Of a DNA stretch of 64,000 nt, positions 6,001 to 15,000 are shown one piece after another (position 1 is the first letter of the stretch; each line of letters begins with the position of its first letter). Origin of the DNA: Candidatus Eiseniibacteriota bacterium (GTDB lineage Bacteria; Eisenbacteria; RBG-16-71-46; CAIMUX01; VGJL01); contig VGJL01000001.1 of NCBI GenBank assembly GCA_016867495.1, positions 92,153 to 156,152 on the forward strand. Direction: 5' to 3'. A program made the position numbers.

Positions 6001-9000
6001 ACCAGCGGAGACAACCTCCGATCTCCTTCGGCTCCATTCCGGTCCTGCCCGGGGCATCGGAGATCGCTAGGGTTCCGCCGGCCTCGACCACGGCGGCGAG
6101 GAGTCGGCGTTCCGGGATTCCTCCCTGAATCCAGCGCCGCCCTTCGGGGCGAATCACCAGCTCGCGATAGGCCTCCTCGGCAATTCTCAGGAGCCCGATC
6201 TCGGCAAGCTGCACGGCCGCGGCGGCCACGCGCGCTTGATCGAGAGCGAGATCCTCGCCCAGCTCCGCCACCCTCTTGCCGTCGCCAGCCTCCCCAAGGT
6301 GCGCGAGGAGCCGAATCTGATCGTCAGGCAGGCGCATTCCATCGTCCTCTCATCATGACGGCCTCGCCGTCGTTTCCCCTTCTCTCGCGGCCCGAGCGAG
6401 GCGGTGGCTGCCCACGATTGCCGCCGTCTCCGCCCGCAGTCGGGTCGGCCCGAGGGACCAGCGGATCGTACCGCAGGCTTCGAGCGCGCGCCTCTCGCCC
6501 TCGCTCAGCCCCCCTTCGGGCCCCACGAGCAACCGGACGCGCAACGCCCCGCGCAAGTCGGGCAGCGCCTCCGACCCGGCGGGATCGGCCAGCAGGGCCA
6601 CGGTGCGCGCCCCGTCGGGCCGGGACGCTCCCTCACGCCGCGCCGGCGCTCCTCCGCGCTCCGGGGGACCGCTCGCGCCCGAGCCGGAGAGCGCGAAAGT
6701 GACAGGATCCTCGGGATGGACGATCTCGGGCAACCAGGATCGCTCCGACTGCTTCGCGGCCTCGCGCGCGATCCTCTCCCAGCGGGCGCGCGGAATCGCG
6801 GCCGACTCCTTCACGGCGCGCTCCCAGAGAAGAGGCGTGAGCGAATCGACGCCGACCTCGACCGCCTTCTCGAGAAGCCACTCGACGCGCGCCCGCTGCC
6901 GCAGCATCGGGAATCCGAGATCGAGTCGCGGCGCGGGGGGTTCGTCCCGCATCCTCTCGATCACGGTTCCCACCAGGCGCCCCTGCTCCTTCCCCAGAAC
7001 CACCCGGTATCGTCCCCCTCGCCCGTCCACCACCCTGCACGCATCGCCCGGCTTCAACCGGATCACCCTGAGGATGTGGCGGCTCTCCTCCTCGGGAAAG
7101 AGGACGCGGCCATCGACGTCAATGCACTCGGCCGGCACAAGGAAGGGATGGGGATCGCGGCCCATGCTCAGCCTGCGAAGGCATCCCGGATTCGATCGAA
7201 GAACCCTTTCTCGGCCTTCGCCGGACGGTTCCCCTCCAGGCGGCGGAGCTCCTCATATAGTTCCCGCTCGCGCGCTCCGAGCTTCTCGGGAACGCGGATC
7301 TCGACGCGGATCAGCTGGTCGCCGTGCTCCCGCGACCGCACGGAGCGGATCCCCTTGCCCCGCAGCCGCAGAACCTTCCCCGCCTGGAGTCCGGGCGGGA
7401 TCTCGACCATCGCCCTTCCCCCCAGCGTCGGGACCTCGATCCGCGCGCCGAGGGCCGCCATCGCCGGCGTGATCGTGATCCGAGTCAGAACGTCGTCGCC
7501 ATGACGCTCGAAGATCTCGTGGGGCTTCTCCTCGAAGATCACGATGATGTCGCCAGGAGGGGAGCCCCGGAAACCGGCGTGGCCCCGTCCCCTGAGGCTC
7601 ATGTAGTTCCCCTCCATCACCCCGGGAGGGATCTTGACGATCACCGTCTCCTGGCCCGCGCCGACTCCGTCTCCCCGGCACTCACGGCAGGGGTTCTCGA
7701 TGATCCTCCCTTCCCCGCGGCATCTCGGACAGGCAGTGACATTCACGATCTGCCCGAAGAAGGACCTCTGGACCTGCCGCACCTGTCCCTGCCCCGCGCA
7801 TTGCACGCAGGTCGTGACGCCGCTGCCGGGCTCGCCACCCGTCCCCTTGCAGTGCGGGCAGGGCACACCCTTCTTGACCCGCACCTTCTTCTCCGTCCCT
7901 TCGGCGATCTCTTCCAGACCGAGCTTCAGTCTGATCTGGATGTCTCCCCCCCGCGTCTCCCGCGCCCTCCCGCCCATCTCCTCGTCGCCGAAGAAGGAGC
8001 CGAGGCCTCCGAACTCCCGCATGAAGGCGCGAAGAGCGTCCGAGAGATCGAAACCGAAGCCTCCCCCAGCTCCGGCGCCGCCGGCCCCGTAGGAGGGATC
8101 GACGCCGGCGTGACCGAAGCGGTCGTACTGCGCCCGCTTCGTCTCGTCCGAAAGGACCTCGTAGGCCTCCGTCACTTCCTTGAAGGACTCTTCCGCCTCC
8201 TTGCTGCCGGGATTGCGGTCGGGATGGTGCTTGAGGGCGAGCTTGCGATAGGCCTTCTTGATCTCATCCGGGCCGGCGCTCTTCTCGACGCCCAAGACCT
8301 CGTAGAAATCTCGCTTCGCCAACTCGACAACCCCTCCACGCGCCTTCCCGCCGCGGATCGAGCCGGGACTTGACGCTGATTCCCAACCGTAGGACCCGCA
8401 TCACCGGGGGTCAAGTCGCGTGCCACAGGCCTGATGGACGCCCGCTCTCCGGCTCGCAACTCGGGGGAGAGTCTACGCGTCGGCCGCCTGTCATTGGAAG
8501 CCGTGCCGAGCCCGCGCCGGGATCCGGATTGACCTTCCGCGAAGCGATGGGCTAGCGTGAGGCCTCCCGGCACGAGCGGGTCAGGTCAGCGGATATTCGC
8601 GGTCAGGTCGTCCAAGGAGGGCCAGATGATCGAGCGACTCGGGCGCGAGCCGAGGCTGTCGGGCCGACGCAGGAGAGGCATCGTCTGGACGGGGCTCATC
8701 GGCAGCCTGTCGCTCCTCGTTCTGCTCGGCGCCCTCGGCATCGCCGGCTGCGGAGATGACAAGAGCGGCAAACCGGACGATCAGCCGACTGGACCACGGC
8801 ATCCGCAGGACCTGTTGCCGCCGACCGGAGGCAGCATCACGCGCACCGGCGATCTCCTTCTCGCCGACACCGCCCAGGAGCTTCAGGCCGCGATCAACGG
8901 CGGCTACACCCTGTACGTGAGCTACTCCTTCCAGGAGTTCGCCGGCCAGGAGTACACGGCCCAGGTCGGGGCGGAGCAACGCGTCAGGATCTGGATCTTC

Positions 9001-12000: not shown

Positions 12001-15000
12001 CGGAAGCGGCCTGGTCGCGGGCGATCGCGCGGGCGGATGATGGGACCGGCGCCGGCGGGTCGCCGGCCGGGCGCGATGGATGGGCGGCCGGCGCGAGCCT
12101 CCAAGCCAGGCGCGGTTCGATCGAGATCACGGGGAGTCACCGGCGTCTTGGAGAGCGATTCACATCGTTCGAGGACCGCCGCACACTCCTCGGCAGGCTT
12201 CGGGACGAGTCGGAGGCGGCTGCCCGATGGAGCCCGAGCGCCCGCCTGCAGACCGAGGTCAACTGGGCGCGCGCGCGCTCGGATTCCGCCGAGGGGGCGG
12301 GACTCGAGTTGGGGGGTCGCGAGTCCTCTTTCACCGGCAAGGTCAGACTCCTCCGAAGCGGCCTGCCCAACCTGGAGATCCGGCGCGGCCGCGTCAGGCT
12401 GGACACGCCCCGCGGCGAGCAAGAGAAGTGGATCACGCGCGCGGAGGTGGAGATCAGCCCGGAGCAGGCGGGCGTCCGTCCCCGCTTCCTCCGCCGTGTC
12501 TGGCTCCGGTCCTTCTTCCAGCGCAGCGAACGACGAGGCGAGATCCTGAGTCCCGGGAGCCAGGCCGCTTCCCGCGACTCCCTGCCGAGGGATGAGATCG
12601 CCGACACGTTCTTCGCGCGCCTCAACGGATCGACCGGGAATCCCGTCTCGTGGAACGTCGCCTTCGAAGCGCGGCGATCCTCCCTTCCCCGGCCAGGAAT
12701 GGACACGACGCAGGACCAGCGCCAGAGCCTCGACGCCACCCTACAGTCGCAGGCGCACCCGAGCCTGGATCTCCTCCTTCGGATGGAGTCCGAGCGGGAG
12801 TTGTTCGCCGACAGCGGCGGCGAGGATCTCGGCCACCAGACCCGCAGGACGTTCTCCGGAAGCGGGCTGATCTACCCCGGAAGGATCAGCCGGCGCCTCA
12901 CCCCCCTCTCCTTCCGAGTGGAGGTGGGAGGAGATGAGACAGGCCGAGGGGAGGCCGGCGATCGACGACCCGGCGCCGAGTTCCTCTGGGGCGCCTCATG
13001 GAAGCCCCGGCGTCTCCTTGTGGAGCGCCGAGCGACGATGGAGAGTCGACTGCAGGTCTTCTCCTGGTTGCGCTGGATCGAGCGCCTGGAACACCGTTCG
13101 GAGTCGGAGGAGCGCGAACCCCTCAGATCCGCCGGCGTCACCCGTTTGATCGAGACGAGGATGGAAGCGAAGCCCAGCGCCGGTCTTCTCACCCTCCGGG
13201 CGATCCTCGAGCGGAGCGAGCGCGGCGAGCAGGAGGAGAGCCGCCGCTTCGTCGGCCAATGGGACCAAGGGTGGGGCCGCGGGTTTCTCACCTATCTCGC
13301 GCTCGAAGGCCGGCATGAGAAGATGAACGAGAGAAACCTGCGCGCGCAGATCCGCGACTGGACGCCGGAAGCCCGCCTCTCCTGGCGGCGTTCGCGGTGG
13401 CAGACCGACGCCTCGATCGGGGTCTCCCTCAACTGGAACAGATCCGAGGATGCCTCCCTTGGGGCGGCCTCAAAGGCTGAGACGAAGAGGCGGGCCGGCC
13501 TCACGACATCGCTGAGCGTGCAACCGGTCAAGATCCTCACGCTGAAGCTGAGGCACCTCTATTCGTTCACCAAGATGCCCGCAGCCGAAGCGGGGAGCTT
13601 CGCCCGCGATGAGGATCATGACTTCCGAGTCACGGTTCTCCTGCGCTCCTAGGGCGGCATGACCGCATCCGGGAGGCCTAGTTCGTCATCGCCTCAAGGT
13701 AGTCGACGAGAGTGCGCGCGCGGGCAGACTCCAGCTGCGCGGGGCTGATCGTCCCGGTCTCGAGAAACCGGGTCCACGCGATCGATGTGGCCCGCACAGC
13801 CTCCCCCGCCGCCTCGAAGCCGGCCAACGGCGCGGCGACAGTCCAGAAGAAGTCGGTCCCCCAGAAACAGAGCCCCGGCCGGGAGATCTCGGCCTCCTGC
13901 CCGAAGGGGCACCCCGCGGGCGCCGCCACGCGGGCCACGCCGCCCATCTCCTCGTCGGCGAGGGTCGTCTTGGCCATGATGACGCACCGCCACGGCTTCA
14001 GAGGGATCTCGTCGTGGAGAAGAGAGGGGTCGAAGGGGATCCATGATCCGTCTTCGAAGTATTCCACCACGCGGTGCATCTCCAGGCGCTGCGAGTTGAT
14101 CGGCACCACGGCCAGGGATCGACAGGGCGCGCCCCTCTCTCGCATGAGGGCGCAGGCCAGGTTCGCGTTCGCCGTGCATATCGTCTTCTCCCCGCTCCTC
14201 AGGACGGCGAGCGCATCCAGGGTTCGCGGCGCCTCCCTCCGCGCCATCCCCTGGATGAAGCGCTGGATGCTCGCGGCATAGTCCCGCAACGCTCCGTCGC
14301 GCGGGTAGAGGCGCTCCGCCAGCTCCTCGACCTCTCCTGCGTCGGACTGCGCGCACGCCGTCGAGGCGAGATACTCCTCCGGCCGCGTTCCGTTCTCGCT
14401 CGGCTCGCGATCGACGATCAGGATGACGCCCGACCAGTCGATCGCGATCTCGCGCTCCCGAACGCCGTTCAACCCGACGTTCACGAAGACGTTGCCGTCG
14501 CTCCGCTGCTGGAGGAGGGAGGCGACCAGCGCCTCCGGGGGCGTGACCGACAGGGAATAGCAGACAGGGATCTGGCGGCCGGTCATCTGCGGAACGGGAA
14601 TCAAGACATCGTAGCGACCCGAGGCGTGGGCCTTCAGGCGGACACCGCCCAGGACCCCCGCGAGGCCGGGCCCCTGCTGGGCCCTTGGGGGGATCGCGGA
14701 GGCGGCTGCCTCGATCGACGCGCGTATCGCCGAGGCCTCCGCCGTCTCCACCGTAGCCAGGGCCACGCCGGACGAGACATCCCACGCCGGCTTCCCACGA
14801 CCGCAACCCGCCAGCAGGATGAACAGCCCTGCCGCGCATGCGGGCAGGGCGCCCGCCCGGAACAGAGGAGATCGCCCGCGCCGTCTTGCCGGTCCCCCGG
14901 CGATCGATCTCATCGGGGAGCGACCTCGCGACCCGTCTCGCGAGCTGCCGCCGGCCCCTGTCACCATCGCCTCACTCGTTCGCGCCTTCCCCCGCTATGC

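What the first reader, a model, noticed from the sequence alone, without database searches (positions are those of the whole stretch)
8557..14913. Lipoprotein plus a 1459-aa secreted beta-propeller protein plus a convergent transglutaminase-like lipoprotein: an uncharacterised envelope module
The 4.4-kb gene encodes a signal-peptide protein with about eight W-rich propeller-like repeats (Reg_prop/Y_Y_Y-like). These are followed by roughly 1000 aa of beta-rich sequence with no recognisable catalytic motif. It is preceded by a small lipoprotein. Downstream on the opposite strand is a lipoprotein with a transglutaminase-like Cys-His-Asp core. None of these has an obvious housekeeping role. A similar propeller-plus-large-C-terminal-domain layout occurs in T9SS components such as PorZ and in surface-layer/adhesion proteins, so this may be a cell-surface assembly or remodelling system.
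Basis: inference. Interest (0 to 1): 0.5.

Follow-up and report, generated by a model that had tools for sequence, protein, structure and literature searches.

The report
Half-size SprA translocon with fused propeller
[quoted passage not shown] It carries an eight-bladed propeller at its front end and is paired with a small lipoprotein, which points to a streamlined secretion pore in Candidatus Eisenbacteria and neighbouring candidate phyla.

Summary
All three genes are real. The 4.4-kb ORF has coding-type codon bias, and full-length homologues of 43-53 % identity exist in Candidatus Eisenbacteria and Krumholzibacteriota MAGs. More distant relatives with the same layout include one from Candidatus Latescibacter. 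Residues ~55-405 model as an eight-bladed Reg_prop/PorZ-type beta-propeller (pLDDT 88.5).

The C-terminal ~1030 residues model as a giant beta-barrel of ~36-40 strands. Its best Foldseek matches are the four SprA structures (E 7e-21, TMq 0.57). Sequence homology to SprA holds by a two-step bridge: hhalign E 3e-38 to long SprA-like proteins, which in turn hit F. johnsoniae SprA at E 1e-109. Pfam and NCBIfam do not recognise the protein.

The DUF6599 lipoprotein is a conserved partner. In 19 of 21 related loci the order is DUF6599, a Tat-signal DUF362 protein, then this gene, often followed by a DUF362 protein with a T9SS type A sorting domain. The window lacks DUF362. The transglutaminase-like lipoprotein has no homologue at any related locus and is not part of the module.

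Best reading: a compact SprA-family outer-membrane protein translocon. It is a new architectural variant of a known kind. Function and the presence of other T9SS parts are untested.

The parts
8626..9240 (+). DUF6599-family lipoprotein (ORF opens at GTG 8557; probable start ATG 8626). It is the conserved partner gene of the big protein.
   Evidence: PF20244 scores 40.2 bits against a cut-off of 27. The lipobox Cys is invariant in 10 homologues. AAGGAGG lies 6 nt before ATG 8626. A DUF6599-like gene lies within 3 kb of the big gene in all 21 unique loci with readable flanks.
9273..13652 (+). Whole gene for the 1459-aa propeller plus SprA-like barrel protein. It follows the lipoprotein gene after a 32-nt gap on the same strand.
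   Evidence: GC3 0.84. There are 38 homologues beyond its own identical copy, 27 of them near full length at 43-53 % identity. No Pfam family at E <= 1.
9273..9431 (+). Signal peptide, aa 1-53 (basic N-region, hydrophobic VLLPLLLLG, predicted cleavage after AEG).
   Evidence: Read directly from the translation. Homologues align from the residues just after it (PFSAT motif). No signal-peptide predictor was available.
9435..10487 (+). Eight-bladed Reg_prop/PorZ-type beta-propeller, aa ~55-405. Inferred to lie in the periplasm.
   Evidence: AF2 pLDDT 88.5, pTM 0.84. Foldseek gives BT4663 at E 1e-12, Tako8 at TMt 0.71, and PorZ 5m11 at rank 36. The family profile hits 4a2l at E 8e-10. The relative P0057 passes the Pfam Reg_prop and PorZ_N_b_propeller cut-offs.
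10563..11003 (+). First ~9 strands of the giant barrel, aa ~431-577. This segment aligns to SprA from about residue 169.
   Evidence: AF2 strands E2-E147 of the C-terminal model. PDB profile positions 432-512 align to SprA 169-251. hhalign covers this stretch.
11007..11774 (+). Inserted mixed domain, aa ~579-834. It holds a DxDGDG calcium-type motif and the conserved VPGSERI...DYSI...EVEY block. Residues ~570-790 are absent from the ~1200-aa subclass of homologues.
   Evidence: The alignment gap in P0029-P0039 is. hhalign to long SprA-like proteins spans it. TIGR04189 positions 588-652 match aa 780-843.
11781..13649 (+). Remaining ~31 long strands of the barrel, aa ~837-1458. It ends ...RVTVLLRS with no terminal aromatic residue.
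   Evidence: AF2 model pLDDT 82, pTM 0.69. The whole C-terminal model gives SprA as the top four Foldseek hits.
13678..14913 (-). Transglutaminase-core lipoprotein (ORF extends to 14967). It is convergent on the big gene and is a neighbour only, not part of the conserved module.
   Evidence: PF01841 scores 31.1 bits against a cut-off of 23. Lipobox LLAG-C. No homologue in any related locus. The family has 114 members, with named ones from Planctomycetota and Candidatus Aminicenantes.

Best explanation

Shown: after Sec export, about 1030 C-terminal residues are predicted to form a barrel of about 36-40 strands that is homologous to SprA. It has less than half of SprA's mass.

Shown: the roughly 165-residue N-terminal extension of SprA is replaced by an eight-bladed Reg_prop/PorZ-type propeller. 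In Flavobacterium that extension lies in the periplasm inside an SkpA trimer.

Inferred: the propeller sits at the periplasmic mouth of the pore. There it would act as a built-in docking platform or gate for cargo.

Shown: the DUF6599 lipoprotein gene immediately upstream is a conserved genomic partner. That it is co-transcribed and binds the barrel physically is inferred.

Inferred: the pore passes folded proteins that carry a T9SS type A C-terminal sorting domain. In relatives the obvious clients are the Tat-exported DUF362 proteins encoded beside it, one of which carries such a domain. In this window the DUF362 genes are absent from the locus.

Shown: the transglutaminase-like lipoprotein is an unrelated neighbour.
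For: Fold: the AF2 model of aa 430-1459 has pLDDT 82 and pTM 0.69, with ~40 long strands. The four best Foldseek PDB hits are SprA chains (8gl6 E 6.8e-21, TMq 0.57). The next best hit, the SDBC complex chain 8agd_A, has E 2e-7 and TMq 0.30.

Sequence: a profile of the barrel part finds 551 proteins in the representative library. The long ones match TIGR04189 SprA at E 1e-28 to 6e-84, and one exceeds the curated cut-off. A relative with the same layout, P0049, matches at E 5.5e-11. hhalign of our family against 16 long SprA-like proteins gives probability 99.95 % and E 3e-38 over 474 columns. Those 16 hit only F. johnsoniae SprA in the PDB, at E 1.4e-109. Two weak direct hits to SprA are colinear with this.

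Propeller.

Periplasmic N terminus of SprA: PMC10994853.

Secretion context: the neighbouring DUF362 proteins carry TIGR04183 type A sorting domains at or above the cut-off (35.1 and 23.5 bits against 23), as does a PorU-like C25 peptidase (30.5 bits). Of 75 other neighbour proteins, 12 match TIGR04183. The DUF362 proteins have RRxF twin-arginine signals.

Synteny: DUF6599, then DUF362, then this gene in 19 of 21 unique loci. This includes three distant relatives with the same layout (L027, L029, L030), one of them from Candidatus Latescibacter.

Organism: it is a diderm with a lipid A acyltransferase and a TonB-dependent receptor in the same window.
Against: The protein itself fails the curated SprA models: TIGR04189 gives 9.8 bits against a cut-off of 200, and Pfam SprA_N gives no hit.

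The sequence homology covers the first half of the barrel part. The last ~500 residues are linked to SprA by the model only.

The barrel is too small to contain SprA's extracellular cap. The lateral-opening mechanism may therefore not apply.

No other T9SS component (GldK/L/M/N, PorV, SprE) was seen in the window or in the flanks examined, and I could not search whole genomes.

The nearest long SprA-like class is from Elusimicrobiota. To my knowledge, not tested here, that phylum is not known to have a T9SS, so SprA-like barrels may have other uses.

The window's own locus lacks the DUF362 clients. The window's only candidate CTD protein (41447-44638) matches weakly (E 0.002-0.009).

I could not read the model coordinates. 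Strand number, pore size and propeller position are therefore not measured.
Confidence: 0.6

Rival explanations
1. It is an SprA-superfamily barrel that does not work as a general T9SS translocon. Instead it is a dedicated outer-membrane housing or conduit for the DUF362 enzymes encoded beside it in relatives. This would resemble the way the MtrB barrel sheathes MtrA, or the way LptD holds the lipoprotein LptE, with DUF6599 as the inserted lipoprotein. The complex would expose a Tat-delivered, cofactor-bearing enzyme at the cell surface.
For: The synteny with two DUF362 paralogues and DUF6599 is strict across distant lineages, which is unusual for sprA. Both DUF362 forms have Tat signals. One locus inserts a Fer4_5 polyferredoxin-type protein between DUF362 and the barrel gene. 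SprA-like barrels occur in Elusimicrobiota, where to my knowledge no T9SS has been described. MtrB and LptD appear among the lower Foldseek hits.
Against: MtrB and LptD score far below SprA (E 1e-5 against 7e-21). One DUF362 paralogue carries a bona fide type A sorting domain, which implies translocation rather than permanent housing. Many unrelated CTD proteins cluster nearby. The window keeps the barrel and DUF6599 genes without any DUF362 gene in 64 kb.
Confidence: 0.25
2. One reading: a three-gene envelope assembly or remodelling module. In it a PorZ-like or S-layer-like surface protein works together with the small lipoprotein and the transglutaminase-like lipoprotein.
For: All three products are predicted to be exported, and two are lipoproteins. 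The propeller is of the Reg_prop/PorZ type. The convergent genes are only 25 bp apart.
Against: No transglutaminase homologue lies next to the big gene in any of 22 related loci. The transglutaminase family is broadly distributed on its own. The big protein has a transmembrane barrel, only one propeller and no CTD, so it does not have the PorZ architecture. At the equivalent position the closest relative has a DUF362-CTD gene instead.
Confidence: 0.05
3. It is a generic very large outer-membrane porin or anchor with a periplasmic propeller. Examples of the kind are the Deinococcus SlpA-type 30-strand barrel, an LptD-like protein or an usher-like protein. On this view the resemblance to SprA is only that of big barrels.
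Against: The profile-profile homology to SprA-family proteins (E 3e-38) includes non-barrel insert regions and conserved motifs. The bridging set hits only SprA in the PDB. The Foldseek TMq for SprA is twice that of any other barrel.
Confidence: 0.07

Closest known systems
SprA (Flavobacterium johnsoniae Fjoh_1653; PDB 6H3I, 6H3J, 8GL6, 8GL8) and Sov (Porphyromonas gingivalis), the T9SS outer-membrane translocon (TIGR04189, Pfam SprA_N PF14349)
   Same: Homologous giant single-chain beta-barrel, shown by Foldseek E 7e-21 and by the bridge hhalign E 3e-38 followed by PDB E 1e-109. The order of the first barrel strands is shared, as is an inserted domain with the VPGSE...DY...EYEY block. The barrel begins where SprA's does, at about SprA residue 169. 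Type A CTD cargo genes lie in the neighbourhood.
   Different: The barrel part is ~1030 residues, against ~2240 in SprA, so most of the mass that forms SprA's extracellular cap is missing. SprA's SkpA-bound N-terminal extension is replaced by an eight-bladed propeller. The protein lacks the C-terminal aromatic residue that is invariant in the long SprA-like proteins of alignment A7. It fails both curated family models. It shows strict synteny with DUF6599 and DUF362 genes. PorV, Plug, PPI, SprE and SkpA partners were not identified.
SprA_N-domain proteins of Elusimicrobiota/Endomicrobia (1600-1900 aa; e.g. the Endomicrobium proavitum protein that UniRef calls 'Gliding motility protein SprA N-terminal ...')
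   Same: They are the closest long relatives in the profile search (E ~1e-24). They align over our residues ~450-830.
   Different: They have no N-terminal propeller and are 200-450 residues longer. They come from a different phylum and have a different gene context (LptF/G neighbours in L028).
PorZ (P. gingivalis T9SS attachment-complex component; PDB 5M11) and the Reg_prop propellers of Bacteroides hybrid two-component sensors (BT4663, PDB 4A2L)
   Same: The N-terminal domain is a propeller of the same Reg_prop repeat type. The relative P0057 passes the Pfam PorZ_N_b_propeller and Reg_prop cut-offs.
   Different: PorZ has two propellers plus a CTD and is a secreted surface protein. The sensors have two propellers plus Y_Y_Y and cytoplasmic signalling domains. 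Here a single eight-bladed propeller is fused to a membrane barrel.
LptD-LptE and MtrB-MtrA (a large barrel with a partner protein held inside). This is an analogy only.
   Same: A large outer-membrane barrel is encoded next to a small lipoprotein or a periplasmic redox-type protein.
   Different: There is no sequence homology. The barrels have 26 strands rather than ~36-40. Foldseek scores are 16 orders of magnitude weaker than for SprA.

Membership tests
SprA/Sov T9SS translocon (TIGR04189, PF14349) | Scores above the curated cut-off of the family models | tested here: not met
   TIGR04189 gives 9.8 bits (E 0.096) against a cut-off of 200. No Pfam family matches at E <= 1, so SprA_N does not hit.
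SprA/Sov T9SS translocon (superfamily level) | Demonstrable sequence homology to experimentally characterised SprA | tested here: met
   hhalign of family profile A5 against long SprA-like alignment A7 gives probability 99.95 % and E 3e-38 over 474 columns. A7 hits only F. johnsoniae SprA in the PDB, at E 1.4e-109. Members of A7 match TIGR04189 at up to 282 bits.
SprA/Sov T9SS translocon | Single-chain giant transmembrane beta-barrel (36 strands in SprA) | tested here: inconclusive
SprA/Sov T9SS translocon | About 2300-2500 residues, with an extracellular cap and a lateral opening | tested here: not met
   The barrel part is 1030 residues and the whole protein 1459. Whether any cap or lateral opening exists could not be examined.
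SprA/Sov T9SS translocon | Conserved periplasmic N-terminal extension that folds inside SkpA | tested here: not met
   The region before the first barrel strand is an eight-bladed propeller. The SprA N-terminus description comes from PMC10994853.
Type IX secretion system (as a system) | Cargo with type A (TIGR04183) or type B C-terminal sorting domains | tested here: met
   Met in related loci. DUF362-CTD proteins score 35.1 and 23.5 bits and a PorU-like C25 peptidase 30.5 bits, against a cut-off of 23. Of 75 further neighbours, 12 match at E <= 1e-4. In the window itself there is only a weak candidate, 41447-44638 (E 0.002-0.009).
Type IX secretion system (as a system) | Core machinery in the same genome: GldK/PorK, GldL/PorL, GldM/PorM, GldN/PorN, PorV, PorU | not testable with these tools
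   None was seen in the 64-kb window or in the +/-10 kb flanks of relatives. Whole genomes could not be scanned. One PorU-like C25 peptidase lies beside the gene in L003 (E 6e-14, far below the cut-off).
PorZ (T9SS attachment complex) | Two beta-propellers followed by a type A CTD, with no membrane barrel | tested here: not met
   The protein has one propeller followed by a barrel. NCBIfam T9SS_PorZ does not hit the window protein.
Reg_prop beta-propeller (PF07494 repeats) | Repeats detectable by the Pfam model, with a propeller fold | tested here: inconclusive
   Pfam finds no Reg_prop repeat in the window protein. However, the family profile hits the BT4663 propeller at E 8e-10. The model is an eight-bladed propeller whose top Foldseek hit is BT4663. 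Relatives pass the Reg_prop cut-off.
DUF6599 (PF20244) | Score above the gathering threshold | tested here: met
   40.2 bits against 27. The family function is unknown. It has no PDB relative and no paper in the held library mentions it.
Transglutaminase-like superfamily (PF01841) | Core domain with a Cys-His-Asp triad | tested here: met
   31.1 bits against 23, residues 243-314. The Cys in TICTANA, the His in EMHRVVEY and the Asp in IPFDPS are visible. Activity was not tested.

The most novel reading that the evidence does not exclude
The propeller-fused, half-size SprA may form a self-contained minimal outer-membrane export device together with the DUF6599 lipoprotein and, in most relatives, two Tat-exported DUF362 proteins. 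It would be a streamlined or ancestral type IX translocon. Its covalently attached periplasmic propeller would replace the SkpA/SprE scaffold and the Plug protein. It might run without the GldKLMN motor, and it would place folded, cofactor-bearing enzymes on the cell surface in Eisenbacteria, Krumholzibacteriota and Latescibacterota.
Probability: 0.2. Interest if true: 0.8.

Novelty: new variant of a known kind. Interest (0 to 1): 0.6.

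Why it matters
SprA/Sov is the largest known single-chain outer-membrane barrel, and its transport mechanism is still being worked out in Bacteroidota only. A natural version with less than half the mass would help define which parts of the translocon are essential. This one has a fused periplasmic propeller where SprA has its SkpA-binding tail, and a conserved lipoprotein partner.

The finding would also extend type-IX-like secretion to candidate phyla where it has not been described: Eisenbacteria, Krumholzibacteriota and Latescibacterota. 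These are absent from the list of FCB phyla in PMC11285876.

The conserved pairing with Tat-exported DUF362 proteins suggests a route from Tat to the periplasm to a giant pore for folded, cofactor-containing surface enzymes.

There is a practical point as well. Several hundred database proteins now labelled 'hypothetical' could be annotated as SprA-superfamily members.

Tried and rejected
1. The antisense ORF 9138-11456 (-) as the real gene. Rejected: wrong codon-position GC pattern, no Pfam hit, and the forward ORF has intact homologues.

2. The transglutaminase-like lipoprotein as a module member. Rejected by synteny.

3. PorZ membership. Rejected on architecture.

4. Direct family assignment with Pfam or NCBIfam. 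This gave nothing usable for the big protein.

6. The afdb50 fold library was unavailable.

7. PDB sequence searches for DUF6599 and the short DUF362 protein found no relatives.

8. Literature searches found nothing for Eisenbacteria plus T9SS, nothing for DUF6599, and nothing for T9SS combined with Latescibacter or Krumholzibacteriota. DUF362 is described only as a clan relative of the LarA N-terminal domain.

9. A search for other T9SS genes in the rest of the window and just beyond its right edge found housekeeping genes and type IV pilus genes only. The look-up for the left edge found no record.

10. Querying the nearest long SprA-like protein, to see whether Eisenbacteria also have a long SprA, returned only Elusimicrobiota names. 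This is uninformative on that question.

11. The promoter and terminator consensus scan of 8200-15100 found no sites.

Full report
**1. What is in the sequence**

All three show the codon-position GC pattern of real genes. For the big ORF GC1/GC2/GC3 is 0.68/0.53/0.84. The long antisense ORF 9138-11456 (-) does not pass that filter and has no Pfam match.

The small upstream protein matches DUF6599 (PF20244, 40.2 bits against a cut-off of 27) and has a lipobox (LGIAG-C). A strong Shine-Dalgarno sequence (AAGGAGG) lies 6 nt before ATG 8626, so the gene probably starts there rather than at GTG 8557.

The big protein starts with a signal peptide, with predicted cleavage after AEG53.

The downstream convergent protein has a lipobox (LLAG-C) and a Transglut_core domain (31.1 bits against a cut-off of 23) with Cys, His and Asp in place.

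The neighbours are housekeeping genes. On one side are PheS/PheT, RsmE and DnaJ. On the other are an enoyl-CoA hydratase, sugar transferases, a HemN-like protein, LepB and LepA. A lipid A acyltransferase and a TonB-dependent receptor elsewhere in the window show that the organism is a diderm.

**2. The big protein is conserved and unannotated**

A search of 5.8 billion proteins found 38 relatives beyond its own identical copy. Twenty-seven are near full length, at 43-53 % identity. Eleven belong to a ~1200-aa subclass that lacks residues ~570-790. Where named, they are 'hypothetical protein' (one UniRef entry reads 'EF-hand domain...') from Candidatus Eisenbacteria or Krumholzibacteriota MAGs, and none has a Pfam domain. 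Pfam finds nothing in the window protein. NCBIfam gives only a 9.8-bit hint to TIGR04189, the SprA/Sov model.

**3. N-terminal part: an eight-bladed Reg_prop-type propeller**

- A profile of the family hits the periplasmic propellers of Bacteroides hybrid two-component sensors by sequence (4a2l, E 8e-10).
- The AlphaFold2 model of residues 45-440 has pLDDT 88.5 and pTM 0.84 and is built of four-strand blades.
- Foldseek's best PDB matches are BT4663 (E 1e-12) and eight-bladed propellers (Tako8 TMt 0.71; Fbw7). PorZ is at rank 36 and BamB is also listed.
- A more distant relative with the same layout (P0057) passes the Pfam cut-offs for Reg_prop (29.2 against 20.4) and PorZ_N_b_propeller (29.1 against 27).

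**4. C-terminal part: an SprA-like giant barrel**

The model of residues 430-1459 (pLDDT 82, pTM 0.69) has three regions. First come nine long strands. Next is a ~250-residue mixed domain. Last come about 31 long strands. That is roughly 36-40 barrel strands in all. I could not read the coordinates, so this count is approximate.

Foldseek against the PDB puts the four SprA structures on top: 8gl6 at E 6.8e-21 with TMq 0.57, then 8gl8, 6h3i and 6h3j. The next hit, the SDBC complex chain 8agd_A, has E 2e-7 and TMq 0.30. MtrB, BtuB and LptD follow at E ~1e-5 to 1e-4.

Sequence evidence settles the homology:
- A profile of the barrel part (alignment A5) searched against 1.84 billion representatives found 551 proteins at E <= 1e-3. 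These include many ~1350-1400-aa proteins with the same layout, and 1600-2058-aa proteins that align from their residues ~110-650.
- The long proteins match TIGR04189 at E 1e-28 to 6e-84. One, P0131, exceeds the curated cut-off at 282 bits. A relative with the same layout, P0049, matches at E 5.5e-11.
- hhalign of A5 against 16 of the long proteins gives probability 99.95 % and E 3e-38 over 474 columns. The match includes the inserted domain and its VPGSERI...DYSI...EVEY block.
- Those 16 proteins, searched as a profile against all PDB sequences, hit only F. johnsoniae SprA, at E 1.4e-109.
- The two weak direct hits are colinear with this: our 432-512 to SprA 169-251, and our 780-843 to model positions 588-652.

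The protein is therefore a divergent, shortened member of the SprA superfamily that the curated models miss.

**5. Differences from SprA**

According to PMC10994853, SprA is a 36-strand barrel of 2403 residues. It is capped on the outside and has a lateral opening. Its periplasmic N-terminal extension is held inside an SkpA trimer.

- In the window protein the barrel part has 1030 residues, so most of the cap-forming mass is absent.
- The barrel begins at the position equivalent to SprA residue ~169, and the propeller occupies the preceding region. By homology the propeller should be periplasmic. This is an inference.
- The family ends in ...R-L-x-I-R-A (here ...VLLRS). The long SprA-like proteins end in an invariant Phe.

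**6. Gene neighbourhood**

I fetched 22 unique related loci: L001-L023 after removing duplicates, plus L027, L029 and L030. I searched their six-frame ORFs with HMMs built from the first neighbourhoods.

- In 19 of the 21 loci with readable flanks (the count includes the window) the order is a DUF6599-like lipoprotein, then a ~310-aa DUF362 protein, then this gene. A ~460-aa DUF362 protein often follows immediately.
- This holds in three distant relatives (profile E 1e-67 to 1e-95), one of which is named Candidatus Latescibacter sp.. In those three loci the DUF362-CTD gene lies upstream of the triad. One of them has a Fer4_5 polyferredoxin-type gene inserted before the barrel gene.
- The lipobox Cys of DUF6599 is invariant.
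- Both DUF362 forms have twin-arginine signals (RRxF[LI]).
- The longer DUF362 form ends in a T9SS type A sorting domain. TIGR04183 scores are 35.1 and 23.5 bits against a cut-off of 23, with a third at 22.1 bits just below it. A PorU-like C25 peptidase next door scores 30.5 bits.
- Of 75 other neighbouring proteins, 12 match TIGR04183 at E <= 1e-4.

The window and its closest relative are the two exceptions. The window has DUF6599 followed directly by the barrel gene after a 32-nt gap, and no DUF362 gene anywhere in its 64 kb. The relative (L004) has DUF6599 and DUF362-CTD downstream and convergent, at the place where the window has the transglutaminase gene.

No related locus contains a homologue of the transglutaminase-like protein. 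Its own family of ~397-aa proteins has 114 members, with named ones from Planctomycetota and Candidatus Aminicenantes. The conserved module is therefore DUF6599 plus the barrel, usually with DUF362 proteins.

**7. Most likely mechanism**

I take the protein to be a compact SprA-family outer-membrane protein translocon.

Shown:
- the homology to SprA;
- the predicted giant barrel;
- the propeller fused in place of SprA's N-terminal extension;
- the conserved lipoprotein partner gene;
- type A sorting-domain proteins encoded alongside it in relatives.

Inferred:
- The propeller sits at the periplasmic mouth of the pore. There it may dock cargo or gate the pore, roles played in Flavobacterium by SkpA/SprE and the Plug protein.
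- DUF6599 binds the barrel.
- Folded clients pass through, among them Tat-delivered DUF362 proteins that carry a sorting domain.

Not tested:
- Whether the same genomes have GldKLMN, PorV or a second, canonical SprA. None was seen in the window or its right-hand extension, which instead carry type IV pilus genes.
- Taxon names for the 120 best-listed relatives of the nearest long SprA-like protein. Where given, they are Elusimicrobiota or Endomicrobia. To my knowledge that phylum has no described T9SS, so SprA-like barrels need not always be T9SS parts. This weakens the step from homology to function.

The main rival is that the barrel is a dedicated housing or conduit for the DUF362 enzymes rather than a general translocon. 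The strict synteny favours that rival. The sorting domain, the many unrelated CTD neighbours and the DUF362-less window locus speak against it.

**8. Novelty and score**

Reviews place the T9SS in Bacteroidota. [quoted passage not shown] Eisenbacteria, Krumholzibacteriota and Latescibacterota are not on that list. No paper in the held library combines Eisenbacteria with T9SS, mentions DUF6599, or combines T9SS with Latescibacter or Krumholzibacteriota.

A half-size SprA with a fused propeller and a fixed DUF6599/DUF362 gene context is, as far as I can tell, undescribed. I rate it a new variant of a known kind, with interest 0.6. The homology is solid and the architecture is unusual. It would help define the minimal translocon. 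However, function, partners and the rest of the system are inferred from sequence only.

Noticed in passing
L005:7081-8004, L029:8884-9819, L030:9054-9992, L005:12376-13758 and related loci: DUF362 proteins next to the SprA-like gene have twin-arginine (Tat) signal peptides. The longer paralogue also ends in a T9SS type A sorting domain. This combination implies a folded, cofactor-bearing protein that is exported by Tat and then sent across the outer membrane.
   Followed up: partly
L027:8382-9950: In one distant relative a 522-aa Fer4_5 polyferredoxin-type protein is inserted between the DUF362 gene and the SprA-like gene. This hints at a redox function for the cassette.
   Followed up: no
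L003:11861-15475 (-): A 1204-aa Peptidase_C25 protein lies two genes from the SprA-like gene. It has a PorU-like region (NCBIfam T9SS sortase, E 6e-14, far below the cut-off) and a type A sorting domain. It could be the sortase of the system or simply a gingipain-like cargo.
   Followed up: partly
P0121 relatives; L028: SprA-like proteins of 1600-1900 aa, some with Pfam SprA_N, are common in Elusimicrobiota/Endomicrobia, including Endomicrobium proavitum. To my knowledge that phylum is not known for type IX secretion. In L028 the gene sits next to lptF/lptG.
   Followed up: partly
window 41447-44638 (-): This 1063-aa protein has no Pfam family. Its last ~100 residues weakly resemble a T9SS-type Ig-like sorting domain (PorU tail region E 0.002; FlgD_ig E 0.009). 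It lies directly downstream of a TonB-dependent receptor gene (44639-47488). It is a possible CTD cargo in this organism.
   Followed up: partly
window 47793-63999 and L031: A large type IV pilus / T2SS-like cluster is present: PilQ secretin, PilM, prepilin peptidase, several minor pilins and a 946-aa protein with a prepilin-type N terminus. It continues beyond the right edge of the window with a second secretin and a second PilM-like (PilM_2) gene.
   Followed up: partly
window 9273-13652 family; alignments A1 and A7: The propeller-SprA family ends in a conserved ...R-L-R-L-x-I-R-A motif without a terminal aromatic residue. The long SprA-like proteins end in an invariant Phe. This may reflect a different beta-signal for barrel assembly in these phyla.
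   Followed up: no
window 20180-22537 (-) and 15851-18121 (-): The LepA ORF is 785 aa, and its GTPase domain starts only at residue 192, so it has either an N-terminal extension or a mis-set start. The 756-aa sugar-transferase ORF overlaps the GT4 gene at 17263-18372, so its real start is probably far downstream.
   Followed up: no
window 11007-11774 (aa ~579-834 of the big protein): The inserted domain contains a GLDSEGDGEVD calcium-binding-type motif, which is conserved as GLDxxGDG in the full-length class and in long SprA-like proteins. A ~1200-aa subclass of homologues has lost most of this domain.
   Followed up: partly
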